This document shows, piece after piece, positions 23,941 through 55,640 of a DNA stretch of 64,000 nucleotides (the stretch's first letter is position 1; every line of letters starts with the position of its first letter). Under the pieces are notes generated by a model, which was not told the DNA's origin, did no database searches, and saw only the letters and a program-made list of their open reading frames with translations. The position numbers and the translations under genes were made by a program. The stretch is from Candidatus Staskawiczbacteria bacterium RIFOXYB1_FULL_38_37 (GTDB lineage: Bacteria; Patescibacteriota; Minisyncoccia; Minisyncoccales; Staskawiczbacteraceae): NCBI GenBank assembly GCA_001822075.1, contig MHPK01000004.1, positions 7,979 through 71,978 of the forward strand, written 5' to 3'.

Positions 23941-24423
23941 ATGGCAAAATTATTAGAACAATTCAATAAATCGCAGTTGAAAAAATTGCCCGAAATAACT
24001 ACGGGTGATATTATTAAAGTGCACCAAAAAGTAAAAGAAGGGGGTAAAGACTTGCCTGCCGGCAGGCAAGGAAAAATACAAATCTTTGAAGGTTTGGTTA
24101 TTGCCAAAAAACACGGCAAGGGAATTTCAGCTACAATTACTGTAAGAAAAATTGCAGGCGGGGTGGGCGTTGAAAGGATTTTTCCCATACATTCACCCTT
24201 AATAGATAAAATAGAAGTTTTAAGGCACGGAAAAACAAGAAGGGCAAAGCTTTATTATTTAAGAACAGCCAAGGGTAAAAAATCAAAATTAAAAAATAAG
24301 GAATTTGCAGAGGTTATAGCCGACGAACCAGAAGAATCACCAGCAGAAGAACCCGCCGAAAATTCTGAAGATAATCAGGCGGGCGAGATGCCAGCAGAGA
24401 CAGAACAGGAAAAAACAGAATAG
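23941..24423 (+). CDS. rplS: 50S ribosomal protein L19 with acidic C-terminal tail and an in-frame palindrome insertion
   Basis: [13 protein letters not shown]...[26 protein letters not shown]...[10 protein letters not shown]. Confidence 0.9.
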
Positions 24424-24695: not shown

Positions 24696-24753
24696 AAAAT
24701 ATTTTGGTTTCTGCAGCTAAAGCGGGCTTGCCCGCCGAAGCTCGCAAGCGTAG

Positions 24754-24827
24754 GCGGGTGTAGCACAGTGGTAGTGCATCTGGTTGCCAATCAGAGTACG
24801 TGGGTCCGATTCCCATCACCCGCTCCA
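24754..24827 (+). tRNA. tRNA-Gly (anticodon GCC), CCA encoded
   Basis: Acceptor GCGGGTG/CACCCGC, anticodon loop TTGCCAA. Confidence 0.85.
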
Positions 24828-35702: not shown

Positions 35703-36263
35703 ATGTCAGAAAATTTTAAAGATTTATATCATTTTATAGACTTGGCTAGGGCCAATAGAAAATACCCGGATAATACAGCAAACAATTTAAAGTCTGCCTT
35801 AAAAATTTTTGAGAAAGAGCTTAATGCAGACGAGTCAAAATCAATAAGTATGATAGAAAACAGCATAGAAGAGATATTCAGAGATGTTGCTATTGCAAAT
35901 AAAAACAAAAGCATCTTATCTTTAAACACCTATAAAGCCCGCCTGCTAAAAGTTATAAATGACTACAAAAAATACGGCGTAGATCCTACAAAAATACAAA
36001 AGTGGACTCCAAAATTAAGGCCTGCCCGCCATAATGCGCCAGCTTTAGGCGGGAAATCCACAGGGGTGTTAATTAAAAAAGATAAAACAGATAAAGAAAA
36101 TATAAACATATCTAATTTTATCGACTCTCCTGTGGAAAGCTCCCACAAAATAGAAATTGTTTTAGAATCTGGGGCAAAAGCTGCCCTATCAATCCCCCGC
36201 GAATTAAATAAAAGCGATGCCGAAACCATAAAAGCTGTGATAAACTCTTTGACTAAGCTGTAA
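35703..36263 (+). CDS. Hypothetical protein carrying an in-frame GC-rich element
   Basis: 186-aa ORF with no recognisable domain. Contains PARHNAPALGG, encoded by the 33-nt element. Confidence 0.5.
   Translation: MSENFKDLYHFIDLARANRKYPDNTANNLKSALKIFEKELNADESKSISMIENSIEEIFRDVAIANKNKSILSLNTYKARLLKVINDYKKYGVDPTKIQKWTPKLRPARHNAPALGGKSTGVLIKKDKTDKENINISNFIDSPVESSHKIEIVLESGAKAALSIPRELNKSDAETIKAVINSLTKL
36021..36053 (+). repeat. 33-nt GC-rich palindromic element (copy A, in-frame)
   Basis: cctgcccgccataatgcgccagctttaggcggg, with terminal cccgcc/ggcggg pairing. Confidence 0.8.
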
Positions 36264-38587: not shown

Positions 38588-39892
38588 TTATTCAGAAAAA
38601 CTTTCCAATTTTTGGAATACTTTTTCATTATATAACACGCCTTTAGTATACTCTTTTAATTGCTCAATGTCAAACTCATTTTTTGTTGATTTTGATACTT
38701 CTTCTTCAACTTCTGCATCTGAAACTTCAATATTTTCTCTTTTGCCAAGCTCTCTTAAAACTAAAAAACCTTTAAGCCGTTTTTCGGCTTCTTTTTGAAA
38801 AGTTTGGGTTAATGCTTCTTCTGTTTGTTTTACAGCCGACAAATACTGCTCAAAAGTAATTTTCATATTCTGGGTAACTTTATTTTTTAAATCTTCCATT
38901 AGTCTTTGTTTTTCGTAATCTACCATTGATTCTGGCAACTCAACTTTTACTTTTCCTGAAATTTTTTCTAAAATTTCTCCTCTTTTTCTTTGTTTTTCCT
39001 GTTCTGTTTTTTCTATTATAATGCCTTCTTTCATGCTTTGTTTTAAAGTAACTAATGTGTCAAAATTACCCATGCCTTTTGCAAACTCATCATTAATTTC
39101 AGGCAATTCCATTTTTTGAACTGATTTTAATTTCACTTTAAAAATTTTACCCGCCTGATTGCCCGAAGGGCTTTCGGCGGGCGACTTCTTTTCCCCGCCC
39201 AAAGCTTCGGCATTATGGCGGGCAGGCTGCCAATCCATTTCAAATATTTTTTCTTCACCAGCTTTCATTCCAACAATTGCATCTTCAAAGCCTCTTATAA
39301 ATCCGCCCTCTCCTAAAACAAAGTGGTCGCGCACAGATTTACCGGCATTTATATCTCTATTTTCATAATTTATTTCAACAAAGTCGCCTTTTTCAGCCGG
39401 CTCATTTTTTAAAGTCATTTTTGCCCTGCTTTTTTGCAGATATTTTAAGGAATCTTGCACTTCTTCTTCTGTAACAGAGATTTCTTTTCCCGCCGACTGG
39501 CGGATAATTTTTTTTGCGATTTCTTTGTAATTTTCTGGTAATTCAACGTCCGGTAGAACAGTAATCACGGCTGTAAAAATAAACGGATTTCCTTTTGCAA
39601 TTTTTACAATCTTAACTTCCGGCTGGCCTATTGGCTCTAAATTATTATCTTTTACATAATCAGAATAAACATGCCTTACAGCATGGTCGCCAGCTTCCAT
39701 TAACAAACTTTCCGGCTTTATTTTTTCTTCAACCAATTTATTCGGCGCCTGCCCGGGCCTGAACCCGTCAACTTTTACATGGCTTTTCATATGCGACAAA
39801 GCATGCTCAAAATGGCGCTCAAATTCTTCCGAAGTTAATTCGAATGTTATTTCTATCTGTGACTTTTCTAATTTTTTAGATTTTATATCCAT
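38588..39892 (-). CDS. tig: Trigger factor, with ~26-aa GC-rich element insertion in the PPIase region
   Basis: MDIKSKKLEKSQIEITFELTSEEF..., FKBP-type core GFEDAIVGMKAGEEK. Inserted segment PARHNAEALGGEKKSPAESPSGNQAG. Confidence 0.85.
   Translation of the reverse strand: MDIKSKKLEKSQIEITFELTSEEFERHFEHALSHMKSHVKVDGFRPGQAPNKLVEEKIKPESLLMEAGDHAVRHVYSDYVKDNNLEPIGQPEVKIVKIAKGNPFIFTAVITVLPDVELPENYKEIAKKIIRQSAGKEISVTEEEVQDSLKYLQKSRAKMTLKNEPAEKGDFVEINYENRDINAGKSVRDHFVLGEGGFIRGFEDAIVGMKAGEEKIFEMDWQPARHNAEALGGEKKSPAESPSGNQAGKIFKVKLKSVQKMELPEINDEFAKGMGNFDTLVTLKQSMKEGIIIEKTEQEKQRKRGEILEKISGKVKVELPESMVDYEKQRLMEDLKNKVTQNMKITFEQYLSAVKQTEEALTQTFQKEAEKRLKGFLVLRELGKRENIEVSDAEVEEEVSKSTKNEFDIEQLKEYTKGVLYNEKVFQKLESFSE
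39194..39226 (-). repeat. 33-nt GC-rich palindromic element (copy B, in-frame in tig)
   Basis: The minus strand reads cctgcccgccataatgccgaagctttgggcggg, which is 29 of 33 identical to copy A in the same reading frame. Confidence 0.8.
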
Positions 39893-44382: not shown

Positions 44383-45675
44383 TTATTCTTTTTCAGATTT
44401 TTCTTCGGCAGGGGATTCTTCTGTTTTTTCTTCTGATTCTTCAGAAGCTTCTTTTTTAGATTTTTTTGTTTTTTTGGCTTTCTTCGGTTTTTTCCCTAGG
44501 TCGCCTTCGGCGTCGGCGGGTTCTGCTGGAGTTTCACTTGTTTTAATGTCTATTTTCCAGCCGGTTAAATTGGCTGCGAGGCGGACATTTCTGCCGTCTT
44601 TGCCAATGGCTAAACTCAACTGGTCTTCTGGCACAAAAACAACAGCTGTATTTTTCTCTCCAACTTTTACTTCAACAATTTTAGCCGGAGCCAGAGCATT
44701 TGCAATAAATTTTTCCGGCTTTTCCTGCCATTGTATCACATCAATCTTTTCTCCGCCAAGCTCATTAATTACTGCCATAATTCTTGTGCCTCTTTGCCCA
44801 ACGCAAGCGCCAATGGGGTCAACTCCTTCTTCTTCTGAAACAACTGCAATTTTTGTGCGAAAACCGGGCTCTCTGGCAATTGATTTTATGACAACTGTGC
44901 CAGAAGCAATTTCAGGCACTTCAAGCTCAAATAATTTTGAAATTAGTTTTGGATAAGCTCTTGAAAGCATAACAACAGAGCCTTTTGGGGTGTCTTCAAC
45001 TTTTAAGATATAAAGTTTTAATCTTTGGCTGGGCCTATAAAATTCCCCTGGAATTTGCTCTTCTCTGCTTAAAATTCCCAAAGTTTTTCCAATATCAATA
45101 AAAACCGTGTGGCCCTCAACTCTCTGCACAATGCCCGAAATTATTTCGCCCTCTCTTGAGCGGTATTCTATGGAAATTGTTTCTTTTTCTGCCTCTCTGA
45201 TTTTCTGTAAAATAACCTGCTTTGCTGTTTGGGCGGCAATTCTGCCATAATCCTGTTTTGACACCAAAGGAATTTCTATTTCTTCTCCAATTTTAATTTT
45301 AGGATAATCTTTTTTGGCGTCTTCTGCCATTATGTGTTTTTCTCCGTTAAAAACAAACTTTTTAGGCGCTTCGCCCTCGCGGACTTCTTCTGCATCTTTT
45401 CCCGCCGCAGCGGGATCCCGCCCATGGCGGGACATCTCTTCAATTTCTTCTTCTGTATAAAGCATTGATTTATCTACAACCAGCTTTACCTGCCAAAACT
45501 TGCAGTCTCCTGAGACCGGGTTAAATTTTGCCTTAATTTTCTGGCCTTTTTTGCCATAATCTTTTTTGTAGGCCGTAGCAATGGCAGCCTCAATTGTTTC
45601 TATAATTTTTTCAGGCGAAATTCCTCTTTGCTCGGCAATCTGCCCCAAAGCGCCTTTAAATGATTTTATATCCAT
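44383..45675 (-). CDS. nusA: Transcription termination/antitermination factor NusA with acidic C-terminal tail
   Basis: S1 and KH domains (GACVGQRGTRI, AIGKDGRNVRLA). The ATG at 45675 is preferred over the TTG at 45690, which lies in the repeat. Confidence 0.9.
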   Translation of the reverse strand: MDIKSFKGALGQIAEQRGISPEKIIETIEAAIATAYKKDYGKKGQKIKAKFNPVSGDCKFWQVKLVVDKSMLYTEEEIEEMSRHGRDPAAAGKDAEEVREGEAPKKFVFNGEKHIMAEDAKKDYPKIKIGEEIEIPLVSKQDYGRIAAQTAKQVILQKIREAEKETISIEYRSREGEIISGIVQRVEGHTVFIDIGKTLGILSREEQIPGEFYRPSQRLKLYILKVEDTPKGSVVMLSRAYPKLISKLFELEVPEIASGTVVIKSIAREPGFRTKIAVVSEEEGVDPIGACVGQRGTRIMAVINELGGEKIDVIQWQEKPEKFIANALAPAKIVEVKVGEKNTAVVFVPEDQLSLAIGKDGRNVRLAANLTGWKIDIKTSETPAEPADAEGDLGKKPKKAKKTKKSKKEASEESEEKTEESPAEEKSEKE

Positions 45676-48981: not shown

Positions 48982-49509
48982 ATGGAAAAGCCGAAAGTAA
49001 AAATATACATTGACGGAGCAAATATGTTTTACACTCAAAAAAGATTGGGTTGGTTCATTGATTGGAAAAAAGTTAAAAATTATATTGAACAAGAAAAAAA
49101 TGTAATAGAGTGGCGATATTATGTGGGTGTTAAAGATAATGATGAGAAAATGCTAAAGTATTTAAAATATCTAAATTTGGTTGGTTTTAATACAATAACT
49201 AAACCCCTGAAAAAGATTAAAATTGGCGATAGTGAAATTATTCCCCAAAATTCAGAAAGAAGCTTTATTTATAAAGCGAACTTTGATGTAGAAATGACGA
49301 CGGATATTTTATTAGAAAAGTTTAAATTAGACGAAATTATTATATTTAGCGGGGATAGCGATTTTAGATATTTGGTTAAAAAATTAAAAGACGCCGGATT
49401 AAAGGTTGTCGTATTTTCTTCAAGAAAAACAATTTCTTGGGAATTAAAAATTGAGTGCGCAAAAGTTATTTATTTTGAAGGCGCAAAAGATAAAATAATG
49501 AGAGAATAA
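48982..49509 (+). CDS. NYN/LabA-like nuclease (native AT-rich copy)
   Basis: VKIYIDGANMFY and IIIFSGDSDFRYLVKKLKDAGLKVVVF. Confidence 0.75.
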   Translation: MEKPKVKIYIDGANMFYTQKRLGWFIDWKKVKNYIEQEKNVIEWRYYVGVKDNDEKMLKYLKYLNLVGFNTITKPLKKIKIGDSEIIPQNSERSFIYKANFDVEMTTDILLEKFKLDEIIIFSGDSDFRYLVKKLKDAGLKVVVFSSRKTISWELKIECAKVIYFEGAKDKIMRE

Positions 49510-49600
49510 AAAACCCACCCCAGCTTTCGCCGAGGTGGTTCTGTTAAACTAACTTTAGTATAGCAAGTTGAAACCAGATGTCAATAGATCGTAAAAAAAA

Positions 49601-49731
49601 GCGGCTCTAGAGTTGGAGGTAGCTTTATGTCTGGGACATAAACAAAGATTTGTCCGAGGAATATCCGAGCCGGAGCAAGGATACCCGAAGCTGGGACAAA
49701 CCCAAAAATTTACCTCCAACTCTAGAGCCGC
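49601..49731. other. 131-nt element closed by a perfect 21-bp inverted repeat (candidate structured RNA or MITE)
   Basis: gcggctctagagttggaggta (49601..49621) pairs with tacctccaactctagagccgc (49711..49731). Inner helices are tttatgtc/gacataaa, tttgtcc/ggacaaa and tatcc/ggata. An A8 run lies on the left, which is a U8 tail on the minus strand. Confidence 0.6.
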
Positions 49732-49805
49732 TTCGCCTATATTGCTCAATACGTATTTTAGATATATTTCATCAATATTTTTCAGTGTAGCATTTTTTAG
49801 TGTAT

Positions 49806-50813
49806 ATGTCAAGTATCCTAAATAAAAAACCGGAGAGGGAAGATGAGGTTTTAGATTCCGCTTTAAGGCCAAAAAAATGGTCAGATTATGTTGGGCAAGA
49901 CAAAATTAAAGAAAATATAAGAATTATTATAACAGCCGCAAAGCAAAGAAGCCAGAGCCCAGACCATTTATTATTTTATGGCAATTCTGGGTTAGGAAAA
50001 ACCACTTTAGCCTATCTCGTGGCCCAAGAAATGGGAAAAGAAATAAGAATCACGGCTGGCCCTGCAATTGAAAGGGCCGGAGATTTAGCGGCAATTTTAA
50101 CAAATTTGTCAGAGGGCGATGTCTTGTTTTTAGATGAAATACATAGAGTGGGCGCAACGGTTGAAGAATATCTTTATCCTGCAATGGAAGACTATAAACT
50201 GAATTTAATTTTGGGCAAAGGGCCTATGGCCCGCACAATGGAATTAAAACTTCCTAAATTTACCTTAATAGGAGCCACCACAAGGCCTGCTTTGCTGTCT
50301 TCTCCTTTGAGAAACCGCTTTGGCGCAATTTTCCAGCTCAATTTTTATACACCAGAGGATATGGAAAAAATAATTAAAAGGTCCTCGGACCTTTTGAAAA
50401 TAAAAATTGAGCCAGAAGCTTTAAAAATAATTTCAAACCGCTCTCGCTTCACCCCAAGAGTTGCCAACAGACTTTTAAAAAGAGTAAGAGATTTTGCCCA
50501 AGTGCAAGGCAACGGCCTTGTCACAAAAGAAATTGCAGAGCATGCATTAAATTTTTTGGAAGTAGACAAAATGGGTTTGGAGTCCGGAGACAGAAAAATT
50601 TTGCTTGCTTTAATTGAAAAATTCAATGGCGGGCCTGTGGGCCTGCAATCGCTGGCTGCAGCTTCCATGGAAGAAGAGGGCACTATTTTAGATATTTACG
50701 AGCCCTATTTAATGCAATGCGGGTTTATAGAGCGCACCCCCAAAGGCCGCATCGCCTCTCGCTTAGCCTACGAACACTTAGGTTTATTGCATATGCGAAA
50801 ACAACTGATATAA
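49806..50813 (+). CDS. ruvB: Holliday junction branch migration helicase RuvB
   Basis: LRPKKWSDYVGQDKIKENI, GNSGLGKTTLA, LFLDEIHR. Confidence 0.95.
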   Translation: MSSILNKKPEREDEVLDSALRPKKWSDYVGQDKIKENIRIIITAAKQRSQSPDHLLFYGNSGLGKTTLAYLVAQEMGKEIRITAGPAIERAGDLAAILTNLSEGDVLFLDEIHRVGATVEEYLYPAMEDYKLNLILGKGPMARTMELKLPKFTLIGATTRPALLSSPLRNRFGAIFQLNFYTPEDMEKIIKRSSDLLKIKIEPEALKIISNRSRFTPRVANRLLKRVRDFAQVQGNGLVTKEIAEHALNFLEVDKMGLESGDRKILLALIEKFNGGPVGLQSLAAASMEEEGTILDIYEPYLMQCGFIERTPKGRIASRLAYEHLGLLHMRKQLI

Positions 50814-51775
50814 TGAAAAAATATTTTATATTTTTATTTTGGCTTGCCTTTTTTCCAGCCCTTGCCTTTGCATCAGAAAAAGTAGACATTAACACGGCTT
50901 TGTTAGAGCAATTAGACCAGATAACAAACGTGGGGCCGATAACTGCGCAAAAAATAATTAATGCAAGGCCTTATTCTTCGCTTGATGACTTGCTAAAGGT
51001 TAATGGGATAGGACAAAAAACTTTAGACAAAATAAAAGAGCAAGGCATAGCTTGCGTTAATTGCGGAGCAAGCAACGAGGAGGCCCGACCTCCTGAGCCC
51101 GCCGCAGCAGCGGCGGGCGAAACTGCAGTTTCAAGTTCTGGGGAGGTCGGGCCTCCAATTAGCTATCCTGCGGGAGTTTTTATTAACGAGGTTTTGGCGA
51201 ATGCCGAAGGCCCGGACGAAGAAAACGAATTTATTGAGCTTTATAATTCAAATAATTTTGAAATTGATTTGTCTGGCTGGAAAATATCAGATTCTGCTGG
51301 CAGTATAACAAATTATATTTTTCCAAATGATAAAAAAATGGGGCCTTTTGGATTTTTGGCGCTTAAAAGGCCTGAAACAAAAATAACTTTAAATAATGAC
51401 CAAGACCAGTTAACTCTTTATTCTCCAGATAAAGCTGTAAAAGATACTATGTCTTACAATTCAGCTCCCAACGGCCAGTCTTATAATAAAACCGCCCCTG
51501 GTTGGCAATGGAGCTTAAACTTAACTCCAGGATCTGCCAATTCAATAGCCCGCCAGGCCCTGAGCGAAAGCGAAGGGTTGCTAAAAGACAAAAAAAATGA
51601 TAATAATATCATAGAAGACAGCTTAGCAGGCTTAGGCTATCCTTTAAACCAAGAAGGCATAAAAACGCAAAATCCTTGGTTTTTATTTTTTATGGCTTTA
51701 GCTATAACAATATTCTCTGCGGTTGTCGTATTATTTATTAAACTAAAATTTAAAAAGAACCATGTCAGGACATAG
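50813..51775 (+). CDS. Secreted ComEA-like HhH DNA-binding protein fused to a lamin-tail domain, C-terminal TM
   Basis: Signal peptide MKKYFIFLFWLAFFPALAFA. HhH VDINTA...LDQITNVGPITAQKII...VNGIGQKTLDKI. LTD VFINEVLANAEGPDEENEFIELYN. Start set at the ATG overlapping the ruvB stop (TAATG). Confidence 0.7.
   Translation: MKKYFIFLFWLAFFPALAFASEKVDINTALLEQLDQITNVGPITAQKIINARPYSSLDDLLKVNGIGQKTLDKIKEQGIACVNCGASNEEARPPEPAAAAAGETAVSSSGEVGPPISYPAGVFINEVLANAEGPDEENEFIELYNSNNFEIDLSGWKISDSAGSITNYIFPNDKKMGPFGFLALKRPETKITLNNDQDQLTLYSPDKAVKDTMSYNSAPNGQSYNKTAPGWQWSLNLTPGSANSIARQALSESEGLLKDKKNDNNIIEDSLAGLGYPLNQEGIKTQNPWFLFFMALAITIFSAVVVLFIKLKFKKNHVRT
51079..51156 (+). repeat. 78-nt nested GC-rich palindrome inside the ComEA-like gene
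   Basis: ggaggcccgacctcc...ggaggtcgggcctcc outer arms (15 nt), inner gcccgccgc-agca-gcggcgggc, then gaaactgcagtttc. Confidence 0.8.
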
Positions 51776-52487
51776 TCATGCAAAAACAATCATGGCCACA
51801 AAAATGGCTAATGATGCAAAAAAGGGCAAAATATATTCCAAATACGGCAGATTGATTGCAATAGCTGTTAAAGACGGCGGGGGCTCCGGCGACCCTGTAA
51901 AAAATGCCAAGCTCAAAGCTGTTATAGAACAAGCCAAAAGCATGAATATGCCGAAAGAAAATATTGAAAGAGCGATTAAAAGAGGCACTGGGGAATTGGC
52001 TGGAGAAAATTTAGAAGGAGTGTCTTATGAGGGTTTTGGCCCAGGCGGAATTGCCTTGATAATTGAAGGCATCACCGACAACACTAATAGAACTCTTACT
52101 GACGTAAAAGTTATTTTAAACCAAAACGGAGGCAAAATGGCAGGCGAGGGGGCTGTAAAATGGATGTTTGACAGAAAAGGAGATATAGCTATTGCCACAG
52201 AAGGAAAATTAAAAGAGGAGTTAGAGCTTCTTGCAATAGAGCTGGGGGCTGAAGATGTAAGGTGGCGCAATAATTTTTTGGATATTTATACAAAGCCTGA
52301 AGATTTAGAAAAAGTTAAAAAATCTCTTGAAGAAAAACAGATTAAAATAGAATCTGCTTCTTTGGACTGGGTTGCAAAAGAAGAAGTTGAAATTTCAGAA
52401 AAAGAAAAAGAGCAAGCTGAAAAACTTTTTGAAGCATTAGACGAAAACGACGCCATAAATAATATATACTCTAATATAAAAGCATAA
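51762..52487 (+). CDS. YebC/PmpR-family transcriptional regulator
   Basis: MSGHSHAKTIMATKMANDAKKGKIYSKYGRLIAIAVKDGGG...ENIERAIKRG. Confidence 0.9.
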   Translation: MSGHSHAKTIMATKMANDAKKGKIYSKYGRLIAIAVKDGGGSGDPVKNAKLKAVIEQAKSMNMPKENIERAIKRGTGELAGENLEGVSYEGFGPGGIALIIEGITDNTNRTLTDVKVILNQNGGKMAGEGAVKWMFDRKGDIAIATEGKLKEELELLAIELGAEDVRWRNNFLDIYTKPEDLEKVKKSLEEKQIKIESASLDWVAKEEVEISEKEKEQAEKLFEALDENDAINNIYSNIKA

Positions 52488-52502
52488 AATTTTCTCTAAA
52501 TT

Positions 52503-52994
52503 ATGATAATTTTGGGAGTAGACCCAGGGTCTGTGCTGGCAGGATATGCCGTACTCAAAAAAGACAAAAATAAAAAATTAGAGGTTTTGGATTTTGGTTG
52601 CATAAATGTGGAAAAAAGCCTTTCAACTGGAGACAGGCTAAAAAACGTTCACAAAGAAATAACTAAAATCATAGAAAAATACAGGCCAGATGCAATGTCT
52701 GTTGAAAATTTGTTCTTTTTTAAAAACTTAAAAACAGTAATGCCCGTAAGCCAGACAAAAGGAGTTATTTTGCTGGCTGGAGCCCAAAAAAATATTCCTG
52801 TTTTTGAATTTACCCCTCTTCAGATGAAAATGGCAATTGCAGGATATGGGAGGGCTGAAAAAAAACAAATTAAGGAAATGATAAAAAAAATCCTTGATTT
52901 AAAAGGTTTTGACCTTAAAAAAAACCATAGAAAAAAAGACGACGCTTTTGATGCCTTGGGTATGGCAATCTGCGCTGCAATAAAAGCATATTAA
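52503..52994 (+). CDS. ruvC: Crossover junction endodeoxyribonuclease RuvC
   Basis: IILGVDPGSVLAGYAVL, MSVENLFFFKN, DDAFDALGMAICA. Confidence 0.9.
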   Translation: MIILGVDPGSVLAGYAVLKKDKNKKLEVLDFGCINVEKSLSTGDRLKNVHKEITKIIEKYRPDAMSVENLFFFKNLKTVMPVSQTKGVILLAGAQKNIPVFEFTPLQMKMAIAGYGRAEKKQIKEMIKKILDLKGFDLKKNHRKKDDAFDALGMAICAAIKAY

Positions 52995-53025
52995 ACTTAT
53001 TCACAGAGACTCGCTTCTAACGGGG

Positions 53026-53053
53026 TTGACAATAATTCTTGAAAAAATATAAT
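53026..53053 (+). promoter_or_regulatory. Promoter of the small acidic ORF
   Basis: TTGACA - 16 nt - TATAAT. The -35 hexamer is fused to a solo tctaacgggg motif. Confidence 0.6.
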
Positions 53054-53149
53054 TAGTTCAACGGGATAAAATTTAAGAATAAAAAGCTTAATTTTATTTA
53101 GCTAAATCCAGAGGACAACTGAGTTTACTAAAAAATTAAGCTTCAAAAA

Positions 53150-53314
53150 ATGGAAGAGGAATTTTTAACCAGATTAATCAACGAAGACGATGATTTTGAC
53201 GAAGAAAATTGGAGCGATGACGCAGACACAGATTCAGACGACGACGAAAAAGAACAAGACGATGACATGCTTGCCGATGACGACGACGTAGAAACAGGCG
53301 CAGGAGATGAATAA
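53150..53314 (+). CDS. 54-aa extremely acidic protein (not in ORF track)
   Basis: Hand translation: MEEEFLTRLINEDDDFDEENWSDDADTDSDDDEKEQDDDMLADDDDVETGAGDE*. Has its own promoter and terminator. Confidence 0.5.
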   Translation: MEEEFLTRLINEDDDFDEENWSDDADTDSDDDEKEQDDDMLADDDDVETGAGDE

Positions 53315-53335
53315 AAAATCTAAATTATAAAACAA

Positions 53336-53365
53336 AAACCCCGCCCGTCGGCGGGGTTTTTGTTT
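53336..53365 (+). terminator. Terminator of the acidic ORF
   Basis: AAAACCCCGCC-cgtc-GGCGGGGTTTT followed by TGTTTT. Confidence 0.8.
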
Positions 53366-53377
53366 TATGCTTAAATC

Positions 53378-53406
53378 TTGAAAATCAAACAAATTGCGTC
53401 TATAAT
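53378..53406 (+). promoter_or_regulatory. Promoter of the PBP1A gene, implying a leaderless or near-leaderless mRNA
   Basis: TTGAAA - 17 nt - TATAAT. The ATG lies 9 nt after the -10 hexamer, with no SD. Confidence 0.55.
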
Positions 53407-53414
53407 GTATAAAT

Positions 53415-55640
53415 ATGAGAAAAAAAATCACCATAAAAAAAAGCGGGACAAAAAAACCGCTTGAACATCAGTTTTCTCGGCTAAAAAATAAAACATTCAG
53501 CATTATTAAAAAAATATTTTCGCAGAGGATAGTTCTAATTGCTGGAAAGGTTCTCGGCTTTTTATTTATAGCAGGGTGCATATTTGTTTTGTTTTTGTTT
53601 TTTTATTATACCTATGACCTCCCAAAGCCAGAAAAATTTACAGAAACCCCGTTTATAGAGTCAACTAAGATTTATGACAGAACAGGAGAAGTTCTTTTAT
53701 ATGACATATATGGAGAAGAAAAAAGAGAAATCGTGCCTTTTGACAAAATTTCAGATAATATAAAGCATGCTGTTTTAGCCACAGAAGACGCTAATTTCTA
53801 CCAGCACGGAGGCATATCTATTGAGGGGCTGATAAGGTCCGTAATGATAGATTTAAAATTGCAATCTACAAATTACGGCGGCTCCACAATCACTCAACAA
53901 CTCATAAGAACTGTTTATCTTTCAACCCAAAAAACAATTTCAAGAAAAGTAAGAGAGCTTGTCTTAAGCATAGAGTTAGAGCAAAGATATTCTAAAGACC
54001 AAATTTTTGATTGGTACTTAAATGCTATTCCTCTTGGAGAAAATTGCTATGGGGTGGAGGCTGCAAGCAGAACATACTTTAATAAATCAGCCGCTGATAT
54101 TTCTGTGCCAGAGGCCGCCATATTAGCTGCTGTAATACAAGCTCCCAGCAGATATTCGCCGTACGGGCCGAATATAGATAAATTAATGGCAAGAAAAGAT
54201 TATGTCATAGATAGGATGGAAAAAGTCGGCTATCTCACAAAAGAAGAAGCTGAACAGGCAAAAAAAGAAAAAATAGAGTTTGAAAAATCAACAATACCTA
54301 TAAAGGCGCCTCATTTTGTAATGTATATAAAAAAATATTTAGATAATAAATACGGGGAAGATTATTTAAAAGAAAAAGGATTAAGGGTTTATACTACTTT
54401 AGATTGGGATATTCAGGAATATGCAGAACAGGTAGTGAAAGACGCAGATAAAACAAATATCAGCAAGGGTTCAAACAATACAGCAGTGGTTGTTTTAGAC
54501 CCCAGAACAGGAGAAATTTTAGCCTTAATGGGCTCAAAGGATTATTTTGCCGGCCCATATCCGGAAACTGGCGGCGTCTTGTTTGACCCAAAATATGATG
54601 TAGCCACAATGGGGCAAAGGCAGCCCGGGTCTGCTTTTAAGCCTATTGCATATGCTGCTGCTTTTAAAAAAGGATATACGGCAAACACTGTGTTGTGGGA
54701 TGTAAAAACCGAATTTAACCCTGCTTGCGACCCGAGCGGAAATGCTGCATTCAGCGCAAATGGCGCTGCCTGTTACAACCCCCAAGATTATGACGGCAAA
54801 AACAGAGGCCCAGTAACCTTGCGAAAAGCTTTGGCATGCTCATTAAACATACCTGCTGTAAAAGTTCTTTATTTGGCAGGACTCCAAGACACATTGCAGA
54901 CAGCAAAAGATTTTGGCATATCAACCCTTACTGACACCGATAATTATGGGCTGTCTTTGGTTTTGGGCGGAGGAGATGTAAATTTATTAGAGCTCACATC
55001 AGCTTATGGAGTTTTTGCCACAGAAGGAATGTACACTCAGCCTGTGAATATACTAAAAATAGAAGATTCAAGCGGAAATATAATTGAGCAAAATCAAAAA
55101 CAATCCAGAAAAGTTTTAGACACGCAGATTGCAAGACAAATTAGCAGTATTTTATCTGACAACGCGGCAAGAGCTCCTCTTTTTGGAGAAAACTCTCCTC
55201 TGCATATCCCTGGATATGAGGTCGCAGCTAAAACAGGCACTACGCAAAATGCGCGAGACGGCTGGACTATGGGATATACGCCGTTTATTGCTATAGGCGT
55301 ATGGACAGGAAATAATGACAACTCTCCCACAAGAGATGTGGGCGTAGGGATTGCGGCTCCTATGTGGAATAAAATTATAACAAAAATATTAGAGTCTCAC
55401 GATGCTGAAAGTTTTACCCCGCCAGAGCAAATAGCAAATAGAAGCCCTGCTTTATTAGGACAGTTGCAACCAGGCGACTCTAATACTATTTTATATTATA
55501 TTGATATAGATAACCCCTTGGGCCCCCAGCCGACATATCCAGCAAATGACCCGCAATATTCTTTATGGCAAATAGGAATTAACAACTGGCTGATTGGAAC
55601 TGGCCAATACCAATCTTCTATTGCGCCTCCAAATAATTAA
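53415..55640 (+). CDS. Bifunctional penicillin-binding protein 1A (GT51 transglycosylase + transpeptidase)
   Basis: ATEDANFYQHGG, GGSTITQQL, SAFKP (SxxK), KTGTT. Confidence 0.9.
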   Translation: MRKKITIKKSGTKKPLEHQFSRLKNKTFSIIKKIFSQRIVLIAGKVLGFLFIAGCIFVLFLFFYYTYDLPKPEKFTETPFIESTKIYDRTGEVLLYDIYGEEKREIVPFDKISDNIKHAVLATEDANFYQHGGISIEGLIRSVMIDLKLQSTNYGGSTITQQLIRTVYLSTQKTISRKVRELVLSIELEQRYSKDQIFDWYLNAIPLGENCYGVEAASRTYFNKSAADISVPEAAILAAVIQAPSRYSPYGPNIDKLMARKDYVIDRMEKVGYLTKEEAEQAKKEKIEFEKSTIPIKAPHFVMYIKKYLDNKYGEDYLKEKGLRVYTTLDWDIQEYAEQVVKDADKTNISKGSNNTAVVVLDPRTGEILALMGSKDYFAGPYPETGGVLFDPKYDVATMGQRQPGSAFKPIAYAAAFKKGYTANTVLWDVKTEFNPACDPSGNAAFSANGAACYNPQDYDGKNRGPVTLRKALACSLNIPAVKVLYLAGLQDTLQTAKDFGISTLTDTDNYGLSLVLGGGDVNLLELTSAYGVFATEGMYTQPVNILKIEDSSGNIIEQNQKQSRKVLDTQIARQISSILSDNAARAPLFGENSPLHIPGYEVAAKTGTTQNARDGWTMGYTPFIAIGVWTGNNDNSPTRDVGVGIAAPMWNKIITKILESHDAESFTPPEQIANRSPALLGQLQPGDSNTILYYIDIDNPLGPQPTYPANDPQYSLWQIGINNWLIGTGQYQSSIAPPNN

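What the first reader, a model, noticed from the sequence alone, without database searches (positions are those of the whole stretch)
51079..51156. 78-nt triple-nested GC-rich palindrome translated inside the ComEA-like/lamin-tail protein
**Seen.**
- The outer arms ggaggcccgacctcc (51079..51093) and ggaggtcgggcctcc (51142..51156) are perfect reverse complements.
- Inside them lies the perfect 9-bp hairpin gcccgccgc-agca-gcggcgggc (51097..51118).
- Next comes the 14-nt palindrome gaaactgcagtttc (51119..51132).
- The length is 78 nt, exactly 26 codons.
- It encodes the linker EARPPEPAAAAAGETAVSSSGEVGPP, which joins the HhH domain to the lamin-tail domain.

**Inference.** This is either the most elaborate in-frame member of the GC-rich element family, or an mRNA structure with a regulatory role such as ribosome pausing between domains.
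Basis: partly seen in the sequence, partly recalled or inferred. Interest (0 to 1): 0.55.

Follow-up and report, generated by a model that had tools for sequence, protein, structure and literature searches.

The report
In-frame REPIN-like palindromic repeat in ComEA gene
The 78-base palindrome is a copy of a small hairpin repeat that is scattered through the genomes of ultra-small (CPR/Patescibacteria) bacteria and clusters around a tyrosine-transposase gene; here it sits in frame inside a gene and is translated as a floppy linker between two protein domains.

Summary
In detail: there are perfect 15-nt arms, two inner hairpins, RNA fold -61.4 kcal/mol (z = -9.4), in a 37 % GC genome.

It is neither a by-product of Pro/Ala/Gly codons nor unique to this gene. 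The arms GGAGGYCCGACCTCC / GGAGGTCGGRCCTCC define a dispersed repeat:
- 62 loci were found by exact-pattern scans (51 distinct copies counting the window and five ortholog loci), and all 16 hits in named genomes are Patescibacteria.
- About 60 % of copies are intergenic.
- About 40 % lie in frame in unrelated genes: DprA, RNase HII, MiaB-like, ComF-like, an intein, Wzy-like, and other ComEA-LTD genes.

The variable arm position covaries (U-A 22, C-G 14, G-U 1). In three independent genomes, single units of the same palindrome cluster immediately upstream of a Patescibacteria Y1 (IS200/RAYT-like) transposase gene and lie inside it; in one they also lie downstream, the REP-RAYT ("REPtron") layout.

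The window copy is a REP doublet (REPIN-like). Its family spacer lies in reverse orientation and carries an extra 22-nt GC hairpin.

ComEA orthologues either carry the element, with compensatory arm changes, or have unrelated linkers. AlphaFold predicts the encoded segment to be disordered.

A regulatory mRNA role is untested. Verdict: a new variant of a known kind (REPIN/RPE-like), of moderate interest.

The parts
50813..51775 (+). Host gene: secreted or membrane-anchored ComEA-like protein (signal peptide, HhH domain, linker, lamin-tail domain, C-terminal TM helix). It lies in a conserved ruvB - comEA/LTD - yebC - ruvC gene order.
   Evidence: ORF list. Pfam HHH_3 at residues 21-76 and LTD at 119-216. 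The same gene order is seen in L001-L007. The AF2 model has two confident domains joined by a disordered segment at residues 87-113.
51079..51093 (+). Left arm, one REP-like unit: GGAGGCCCGACCTCC ('C variant'), read as (E)EARPP.
   Evidence: It is identical to the arm of 19 of the 51 distinct family copies. It forms model helix positions in CM R1.
51094..51141 (.). Spacer of the doublet. It contains the family spacer in reverse orientation (minus strand: CCAGAACTTGAAACTGCAGTTT...), interrupted by an extra GC hairpin.
   Evidence: The CM R1 alignment scores 41.5 bits on the minus strand with a 27-nt insertion. Compare with the canonical loops.
51097..51118 (+). Inner 9-bp GC hairpin GCCCGCCGC-AGCA-GCGGCGGGC, encoding PAAAAAG. 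This extra module is absent from canonical copies and is polymorphic between assemblies of one strain (AGCA/CGCG loop; C>G at 51114).
51119..51132 (+). 14-nt palindrome GAAACTGCAGTTTC. It corresponds to the central CTGCA(T)G part of the family spacer.
   Evidence: It is conserved as GAAACTGCGGTTTC in L002 and L003.
51142..51156 (+). Right arm, the inverted REP-like unit: GGAGGTCGGGCCTCC, read as (G)EVGPP.

Best explanation
**What it is.** The 78 nt are a REPIN-like element: two inverted copies of a 15-nt near-palindromic unit (GGAGGYC-S-GRCCTCC) separated by a spacer. The element belongs to a dispersed repeat family of Patescibacteria (CPR bacteria).

**How it probably moves (inferred).** The family is most likely a non-autonomous mobile element. 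It would be moved as a single-stranded DNA hairpin by a Patescibacteria clade of Y1/HUH (IS200/RAYT-like) tyrosine transposases, whose own genes carry the same unit clustered just upstream and inside them (and downstream in one genome).

**What this copy does.** In this genome one copy lies in the inter-domain linker of the ComEA-like/lamin-tail gene. Its length and frame keep the ORF open. It is translated into a disordered Pro/Ala/Gly/Ser/Glu-rich linker (EARPPEPAAAAAGETAVSSSGEVGPP) and is tolerated there, as Rickettsia palindromic elements are in their host genes.

**Its composite form.** The window copy carries the family spacer in reverse orientation plus an added 22-nt GC hairpin of the CCCGCC...GGCGGG type that is common in this genome.

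**Shown:** family membership, hairpin covariation, in-frame insertion in many unrelated genes, clustering of the unit around Y1 transposase genes, and a disordered linker.

**Inferred:** actual mobilisation by that transposase, and neutrality or tolerance of the ComEA copy.
For: **Family.**
- An exact-pattern scan of 185,579 species genomes found 16 loci, all Patescibacteria, with several in the same genome.
- A metagenome scan found 46 more loci.
- This gives 51 distinct copies once the window and five ortholog loci are added.
- CM R1, built from 37 canonical copies, hits the window only at 51073-51167 (41.5 bits, E 6e-13).

**Hairpin.**
- The variable arm position pairs as U-A 22, C-G 14, G-U 1 and never C-A.
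- Further variants (GAGATCCGATCTC, GACGTCCGACGTC) keep the pairing.

**Context.**
- 31 copies are intergenic or in short ORFs, and 19-20 lie inside long ORFs.
- The host ORFs are unrelated proteins: Wzy_C, MiaB-like, DprA, ComF-like PRTase, an intein, an LTD protein, RNase HII and Y1_Tnp.
- The element-coded residues are clean insertions relative to an element-free DprA and to E. coli RNase HII.

**ComEA orthologues.**
- About 10 of the 115 orthologues analysed carry the element at the same linker position, with compensatory arm changes: GCC/GGG versus GTC/GGA, i.e. C-G versus T-A.
- The others have unalignable linkers.

**Transposase link.**
- In L074/L076/L077 (P0132), units ATGGAGGTCGGACCTCCAT lie upstream of the Y1 gene (9603, 9913, 9964), inside it (10162, ~10207) and downstream in inverted sense (10689).
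- In L078 (P0144) there are three units within 140 nt upstream and two inside the gene.
- In L052 there is one unit about 30 nt upstream and a doublet inside the gene.
- A paralogous Y1 gene in L074 is flanked by a different variant sharing the GGTCGGACC core. This matches the one-RAYT-one-REP specificity described in PMC3337134.

**Tolerance.** AF2 gives pLDDT below 50 and coil for residues 87-113, between two domains at pLDDT around 90.
Against: - Only one copy exists in this 64-kb window, and no Y1 transposase gene is present in it. The link to a transposase is therefore by family, not shown for this genome.
- The Y1 proteins score 27-43 bits on NCBIfam's RAYT equivalog model, below its cut-off of 80.
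- The GTAG/CGTC end tag typical of REPs is absent: 4 of 100 ends.
- No insertion polymorphism was seen among close strains. All four same-strain assemblies carry the element.
- No target-site duplication is evident.
- The composite 'type A' form occurs only in ComEA genes and is more conserved than the host gene. Amino-acid identity is 58-85 % against 52-58 % for the flanks. Identical codons at identical residues run 0.60-1.00 against 0.51-0.68. A purely neutral passenger does not predict this.
- The exact-pattern scans only recover copies with intact arms, so arm conservation among those hits is partly by construction.
Confidence: 0.72

Rival explanations
1. A selected cis-acting RNA (or DNA) structure of the comEA-LTD gene or the ruvB-ruvC operon. 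Possible roles are a ribosome pause between domains, an mRNA processing or stability signal, or an internal attenuator. The element would have been recruited from the repeat family, or would merely resemble it.
For: - The fold is very stable.
- The three-helix layout and arm pairing are kept, with compensatory changes, in orthologues whose proteins are only about 55 % identical.
- The element is more conserved than its flanks even at synonymous positions, and it keeps GC-rich rare codons in an AT-rich genome.
- Canonical intergenic copies sit tightly between co-oriented genes, where REPs are known to affect mRNA.
Against: - The nearest relatives (P0002, P0003) and most orthologues lack the element, and it is scattered on the protein tree.
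- Both spacer orientations occur in ComEA genes.
- The same arms occur in three reading frames, in unrelated genes and in intergenic DNA.
- There is no U-run after the stem, and no terminator-like call at 51079-51156.
- There is no Rfam family.
- Arm complementarity can be kept without selection, by hairpin-templated (quasipalindrome) correction.
Confidence: 0.13
2. A binding or recognition site for a conserved host factor rather than a transposon. Examples are a domesticated Y1 protein acting on hairpins for a cellular purpose, or a DNA-uptake or recombination signal in these naturally competent bacteria.
For: - The arms are nearly identical across deeply divergent CPR phyla: Saccharibacteria, Curtissbacteria and Paceibacterota.
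- Units cluster at the 5' end of, and inside, the Y1 gene, which suggests autoregulation.
- Copy numbers seen are low.
- Several hosts are competence or recombination genes: ComEA, ComF, DprA, and genes next to ruvB/ruvC.
Against: - At one copy per 64 kb the density is far too low for an uptake sequence.
- Near-identical copies lie in different flanks, and there is more than one copy per contig, which fits duplication or transposition.
- No experiment bears on this.
Confidence: 0.1
3. Incidental palindromy of a Pro/Ala/Gly-rich linker, or a peptide module selected at the protein level (E[AV]RPPE...EVGPP) that spreads by recombination.
For: - Poly-Ala (GCN)n tracts are intrinsically self-complementary.
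- 12 of 19 genic copies use the same E[AV]RP frame.
Against: - 31 copies are non-coding, and other genic copies are read as RSDL.. or GPTS...
- The covariation links a non-synonymous change in one arm (Ala/Val) to a synonymous one in the other (GGG/GGA).
- No GC-rich inverted repeat appeared in 100 simulated windows.
- Orthologues lacking the palindrome have unrelated peptides.
Confidence: 0.03

Closest known systems
REP / REPIN elements with their RAYT transposases ('REPtrons'), e.g. Pseudomonas fluorescens SBW25 and E. coli (PMC3337134, PMC3733652)
   Same: - A short near-palindromic unit.
- Two inverted units plus a spacer forming a long hairpin, with a variable spacer that still folds.
- Mostly between co-oriented genes.
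- A Y1/HUH transposase gene with the same unit clustered beside it, and paralogous transposases with their own unit variants.
- Occasional intragenic copies are reported for REPs (PMC3733652).
   Different: - No GTAG or CGTC end tag.
- The unit is shorter (15-19 nt).
- Observed copy number is low.
- About 40 % of recovered copies are intragenic and in frame.
- Units lie inside the transposase ORF itself.
- The arms are nearly identical across several CPR phyla.
- The Y1 proteins fall below NCBIfam's RAYT cut-off.
Rickettsia palindromic elements (RPE; Ogata et al. 2000, as summarised in PMC10969869)
   Same: - A palindromic repeat inserted in frame into many unrelated housekeeping genes of a small-genome, host-dependent bacterium.
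- It is translated and placed where the protein tolerates it.
   Different: - RPEs are about 100-150 bp, confined to Rickettsia and CGTC-tagged, and no transposase has been linked to them.
- This element is 49-78 nt, belongs to CPR and has a candidate Y1 transposase.
- Sequence relatedness to RPEs was not tested.
Bacterial MITEs with intragenic copies (ERIC, Correia, BOX; PMC10969869)
   Same: - Terminal inverted repeats of 14-15 bp.
- Non-coding size.
- Can create in-frame fusions.
   Different: - No target-site duplication is visible.
- It is much smaller.
- The ends are themselves palindromes, which suggests ssDNA hairpin chemistry rather than cut-and-paste by a DDE enzyme.
Sub-terminal hairpins of IS200/IS605 recognised by TnpA (established knowledge of the family)
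   Same: - A Y1/HUH enzyme family.
- Imperfect palindromes next to the transposase gene.
- Recognition as single-stranded hairpins (inferred here).
   Different: - Here the hairpins exist mostly as stand-alone doublets far from any transposase gene.
- The transposase genes look single and fixed rather than forming a complete IS.

Membership tests
REP/REPIN-RAYT system | Short imperfect palindromic unit (REP) | tested here: met
   Each arm is GGAGG-YCSGR-CCTCC. Next to Y1 genes it appears as the 19-nt unit ATGGAGGTC-S-GACCTCCAT. At 15-19 nt it is shorter than the usual 20-40 nt.
REP/REPIN-RAYT system | [quoted passage not shown] | tested here: met
   Fold of -61.4 kcal/mol. 13 invariant or covarying pairs in 37 copies. 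57 of 69 loci hold exactly two units.
REP/REPIN-RAYT system | Multi-copy, dispersed, mainly extragenic within a genome | tested here: inconclusive
   There are 51 distinct copies in all, up to 3-4 per contig or genome, and 31 of 51 are intergenic. Only one copy lies in this 64-kb window. Whole-genome counts could not be made.
REP/REPIN-RAYT system | A Y1/HUH transposase gene flanked by the same unit | tested here: met
   Units lie on both sides of the gene in L074/L076/L077. In L078 and L052 they lie upstream and inside the gene only. No such gene is present in the window itself, so this is shown for the family, not for this genome.
REP/REPIN-RAYT system | Transposase belongs to the RAYT subfamily by sequence | tested here: not met
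   NCBIfam NF047646 REP_Tyr_transpos scores 27-43 bits against a cut-off of 80. Pfam Y1_Tnp passes at 39.3 against 23. The HUH motif and conserved Tyr are present in alignment A4.
REP/REPIN-RAYT system | GTAG (or CGTC) tetranucleotide at one end of the unit | tested here: not met
   GTAG is found at 4 of 100 element ends.
REP/REPIN-RAYT system | Mobility (presence/absence between close strains; excision) | tested here: inconclusive
   Four assemblies of the same strain all carry the element. Near-identical elements occur in different flanks, such as L009 versus L047, and there are two copies in L042. That suggests duplication but does not prove transposition.
Rickettsia palindromic elements (RPE-like behaviour) | In-frame insertion into unrelated protein genes, with the ORF kept open | tested here: met
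   Insertions are shown against element-free homologues.
Rickettsia palindromic elements (RPE-like behaviour) | Sequence membership of an RPE family (about 100-150 bp, Rickettsia) | not tested
   No RPE sequences were compared. Size (49-78 nt) and host phylum differ.
MITE | Terminal inverted repeats plus target-site duplication | tested here: inconclusive
   TIR-like arms are present. No direct repeat flanks the 51 copies. Instead the flanks extend the palindrome (AAAGTT...AACTTT).
Intrinsic terminator | GC-rich stem followed by a U-run | tested here: not met
   The stem is followed by AATTAGC. The terminator scan of 49400-53500 does not list it.
Any curated RNA family (Rfam 15) | Score at or above the gathering threshold | tested here: not met
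   There is no hit at the gathering threshold. The best sub-threshold match is 26.5 bits against 41 for an unrelated eukaryotic intron model.

The most novel reading that the evidence does not exclude
This would be an active, Patescibacteria-wide RAYT/REPIN system that spreads between CPR phyla and routinely colonises coding sequence in frame. That would give the first mechanistic (Y1 transposase) handle on RPE-type 'coding' palindromic elements. The ComEA copy would be retained by selection on the hairpin itself, either as an mRNA/DNA structure or as a locally hypermutable linker. The second possibility is suggested because all four differences between two assemblies of one strain fall inside the 78 nt.
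Probability: 0.2. Interest if true: 0.75.

Novelty: new variant of a known kind. Interest (0 to 1): 0.55.

Why it matters
Small palindromic repeats that insert in frame into essential genes are best known from Rickettsia, where their means of movement has never been identified. Here a comparable behaviour appears in the Candidate Phyla Radiation, another group of reduced, host-dependent bacteria. It comes with a concrete candidate enzyme: a Y1/RAYT-like transposase whose gene has the same unit clustered beside it and even interrupting it.

This makes three questions testable:
- How such elements move.
- Why they are tolerated in protein linkers.
- Whether they contribute linker diversity in CPR surface and competence proteins.

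There is also a practical point. These GC-rich hairpins are places where short-read assemblies of AT-rich CPR genomes break or differ, which produces truncated gene calls.

Tried and rejected
- **Rfam.** Searches of the window, of the element region and of six family loci found no family at the element.
- **Second copy in the window.** A search for the arms with up to 3 mismatches, and a CM search with filters off, found none. The only extra hit is a weak 18-bit match to the small palindrome at 50376-50395 inside ruvB, taken as chance.
- **Intrinsic terminator.** Rejected: there is no T-run after the stem.
- **Codon-usage artefact.** Rejected.
- **Phage origin.** There were 0 hits in 2.9 million viral contigs.
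- **Literature.** No paper combined CPR terms with REP, MITE or RPE terms, and none contained the arm sequences.
- **GTAG/CGTC tag.** Absent.
- **Target-site duplication.** Not seen.
- **Single ancient insertion with clean vertical descent.** The NJ tree of 115 orthologues (linker removed) scatters the element-bearing genes, but the tree is star-like and poorly resolved, so gains versus losses remain open.
- **Hypermutation reading of the SNP cluster.** Not accepted as shown. Assemblies of the same strain also have N-gaps exactly at GC hairpins, so sequencing or assembly error at the hairpin is a live alternative. The AGCA/CGCG loop allele does recur in two independent assemblies.

Full report
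**1.
- The arms 51079-51093 and 51142-51156 are perfect reverse complements. They enclose a 9-bp GC hairpin (51097-51118) and the 14-nt palindrome 51119-51132.
- As RNA the 78 nt fold at -61.4 kcal/mol, against -33.0 +/- 3.0 for shuffles (z = -9.4).
- The window is 36.7 % GC, and this is its most GC-rich 60-nt stretch at 0.73.
- No GC-rich 12-mer inverted repeat arose in 100 simulated windows.
- The host ORF is 50813-51775, with a signal peptide, HHH_3 at residues 21-76 and LTD at 119-216. It lies between ruvB and a yebC-like gene.
- The element is one base out of register with codon boundaries, and the two inner hairpins lie side by side rather than nested.

**2. Orthologues.**
- The protein is a Candidatus Staskawiczbacteria-type ComEA-LTD protein. 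Apart from its own 90 %-identity cluster (nine members at 98 % identity or more), the closest relatives are about 60 % identical.
- In an alignment of 37 orthologues the linker is unalignable, except in a patchy subset. That subset shares E[AV]RPPE...(S)GEVGPP although the proteins are only 53-58 % identical. Among the 115 orthologues analysed, about ten carry it.
- The DNA of six element-bearing orthologues (L001-L003, L005-L007), all in the same ruvB-comEA-yebC gene context, shows that the conserved feature is the nucleotide palindrome. The window, L006 and L007 have GGAGGCCCGACCTCC / GGAGGTCGGGCCTCC. L003 has GGAGGTCCGACCTCC / GGAGGTCGGACCTCC, and L001, L002 and L005 have the same variant with one or two mismatches. 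This is a C-G to T-A double change that is non-synonymous in one arm (Ala/Val) and synonymous in the other.
- The interior varies. L006, L007 and L025 have a short spacer, TGAAAACTTGCATGCAGATTCCGT ('type B'). The window, L001, L002, L003 and L005 have a composite spacer with a GC hairpin ('type A').

**3. It is a dispersed family.**
- Scanning one genome per species (GTDB) for GAGGYCCGACCTCC-N25-55-GTCGGRCCTC gave 16 loci. All are Patescibacteria: Paceibacterota, Saccharibacteria, Curtissbacteria, Nealsonbacteria, Liptonbacteria and Parcubacteria. Several genomes contribute two or three hits.
- The metagenome scan gave 46 more loci. The viral scan gave none.
- With the window and the five ortholog loci that match the pattern, this gives 51 distinct copies.
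- The canonical form is about 52 nt: a 14-15-bp stem and a 21-25-nt A/T-rich spacer with the consensus yyGAAAACTTGnnTGCAGATTTTnr. The flanks often extend the palindrome (AAAGTT...AACTTT).
- The one variable stem position pairs as U-A 22, C-G 14, G-U 1 and never C-A. The search pattern did not force this covariation.
- A covariance model of 37 copies matches the window only at 51073-51167. The better score is on the minus strand (41.5 bits), with a 27-nt insertion in the spacer. The window copy is therefore a family member whose spacer is inverted relative to L006 and carries an added GC hairpin.
- Nested extra palindromes in the spacer also occur elsewhere, in L031 and L032.

**4. Genic copies.**
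- 31 copies are intergenic, typically filling the short gap between co-oriented genes.
- 19-20 copies lie inside long ORFs. The hosts are unrelated:
  - a Wzy_C membrane protein;
  - a MiaB-like enzyme, between its UPF0004 and radical-SAM domains;
  - DprA, between its two domains;
  - a ComF-like PRTase;
  - an intein;
  - a 1011-aa LTD protein;
  - RNase HII;
  - other ComEA-LTD genes;
  - a Y1 transposase.
- All three frames of the arms are used (EVRP.., RSDL.., GPTS..), and the EVRP frame is the commonest.
- Against an element-free DprA, and against E. coli RNase HII, the element-coded residues are clean insertions.
- In the window protein, AlphaFold gives pLDDT below 50 and coil for residues 87-113, between two confident domains. 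This is the behaviour described for Rickettsia palindromic elements (PMC10969869). Intragenic REPs have also been reported (PMC3733652).

**5. Link to a tyrosine transposase.**
- Four family loci contain Y1_Tnp genes.
- In L052 the gene carries a doublet in frame and has a single unit, ATGGAGGTCGGACCTCCAT, about 30 nt upstream.
- Its homologues form a large Patescibacteria family of about 220-aa proteins. They have a hypervariable segment in which many members show element-like peptides: RSDL..RWRSDL, or EVGP/QVGP..VRP.
- Two further members were fetched. Around P0132 (L074/L076/L077) the same unit lies three times upstream, twice inside the gene and once downstream in inverted sense. A second Y1 paralogue 3 kb away is flanked by a different unit, CTTAAGGGTCGGACCCTTAAG, sharing the GGTCGGACC core.
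- Around P0144 (L078) there are three units within 140 nt upstream and two inside the gene.
- Other Y1 genes (L024, L061, L037) are flanked by their own, different palindromes.
- Units on both sides of the gene (P0132), and one unit type per transposase paralogue, are the REP-RAYT ('REPtron') layout and specificity described for REPINs (PMC3337134).
- The proteins pass Pfam Y1_Tnp but not NCBIfam's RAYT equivalog cut-off, and the GTAG tag is absent. I therefore file the element as REPIN-like, not as a canonical REP.

**6. Why the ComEA copy persists is not settled.**
- Element-bearing orthologues are scattered on a (weak) NJ tree. Type B copies cluster, and the composite type A occurs only in ComEA genes.
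- The element is more conserved than the host gene. Amino-acid identity is 58-85 % against 52-58 %. Identical codons at identical residues run 0.60-1.00 against 0.51-0.68.
- This fits selection on the hairpin, homogenisation of the arms by hairpin-templated repair, or exchange by recombination in these competent bacteria. The data do not discriminate among these.
- There is no terminator signature and no Rfam family.

**7. Strain-level variation.**
- L070 is 99.98 % identical to the window over 20,203 nt. All four differences lie in the element: 51083 and 51091 in the left arm, and 51106 and 51109, which turn the loop AGCA into CGCG and make a perfect 22-nt palindrome.
- The CGCG allele recurs in an independent assembly, L071, and L073 has 51114 C>G.
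- Two other assemblies have N-gaps exactly at GC hairpins: L072 at 51115-51170 and L073 at 45365-45373 inside nusA. These gaps produced truncated gene calls.
- Real quasipalindrome mutagenesis and sequencing or assembly error at hairpins are both possible.

**8. Verdict.**
- The finding is real and is not an accident of codon usage.
- It is an in-frame copy of a REPIN-like palindromic repeat family of CPR bacteria, with a candidate Y1 transposase, behaving like Rickettsia RPEs.
- I found no description of it in the searchable literature.
- The kind is known, so I rate it a new variant of a known kind, with interest about 0.55.

Noticed in passing
window 49599-49733 (+), between the NYN-domain gene and ruvB: A 135-nt structured element closed by a ~23-bp stem. 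The fold of 49585-49750 is -67.5 kcal/mol (z = -8.3). It is 89-92 % identical in L005, L006 and L025 and 78 % identical in L003, species whose neighbouring proteins are only ~55 % identical. Nine pairs show compensatory changes. There is no Rfam match. It is a candidate conserved non-coding RNA.
   Followed up: partly
window 24352-24383, 24731-24758, 36025-36053, 39150-39222, 45401-45431, 53340-53355: CCCGCC-loop-GGCGGG hairpins occur 9 times (these sites plus 51098-51117 inside the element) against 0.02 expected. Several are in frame in housekeeping genes. In NusA the segment lies within a ~45-aa insertion relative to T. maritima NusA. Others lie in trigger factor and in the L19 C-terminal tail. 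Sites 36025 and 39194 share CCCGCCATAATGC..AGCTTT.GGCGGG. This looks like a second small repeat family.
   Followed up: partly
window 51083, 51091, 51106, 51109, 51114; L070, L071, L072, L073: All four differences between two 99.98 %-identical assemblies fall inside the 78-nt element. The AGCA/CGCG loop allele recurs in a second assembly. Other assemblies have N-gaps at this hairpin and at the nusA hairpin, giving truncated gene calls P0122 and P0123.
   Followed up: yes
L071 versus window 50858-51055: Of the 24 differences between L071 and the window over 10,969 nt, 22 lie at 50858-51055, just upstream of the element. The other two are the loop changes 51106 and 51109. There are none in the 10.6 kb downstream. 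L071 also lacks ruvB upstream. This is a recombination or assembly junction next to the palindrome.
   Followed up: no
L024 150-270 and 870-990; L061 1-140 and 715-830; L074 13623-13712 and 14360-14395: Other Patescibacteria Y1 transposase genes are each flanked on both sides by their own palindromes: GCGTTAGGCTTAGCCTAACGC, ATGGTGAAGGCGAGACCTTCACCAT and CTTAAGGGTCGGACCCTTAAG. Many distinct REP-RAYT-like pairs therefore exist in CPR genomes.
   Followed up: partly
ComEA-LTD orthologues P0032 and P0033 (alignment A1, linker): These two orthologues share a different linker, SLRGGQQSDAAI...IASSPEAPRND. It looks like the translation of another GC-rich palindromic repeat at the same permissive site.
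   Followed up: no
L030 1858-1909 and L038 2668-2719: A family copy lies in frame inside an intein, just before its C-terminal splicing block (VYDIEVEGTHNFIANGIVAHN).
   Followed up: no
window 50376-50395 (inside ruvB): The small palindrome AAAAGGTCCTCGGACCTTTT gives a weak 18-bit hit to the family model. It is probably chance.
   Followed up: no
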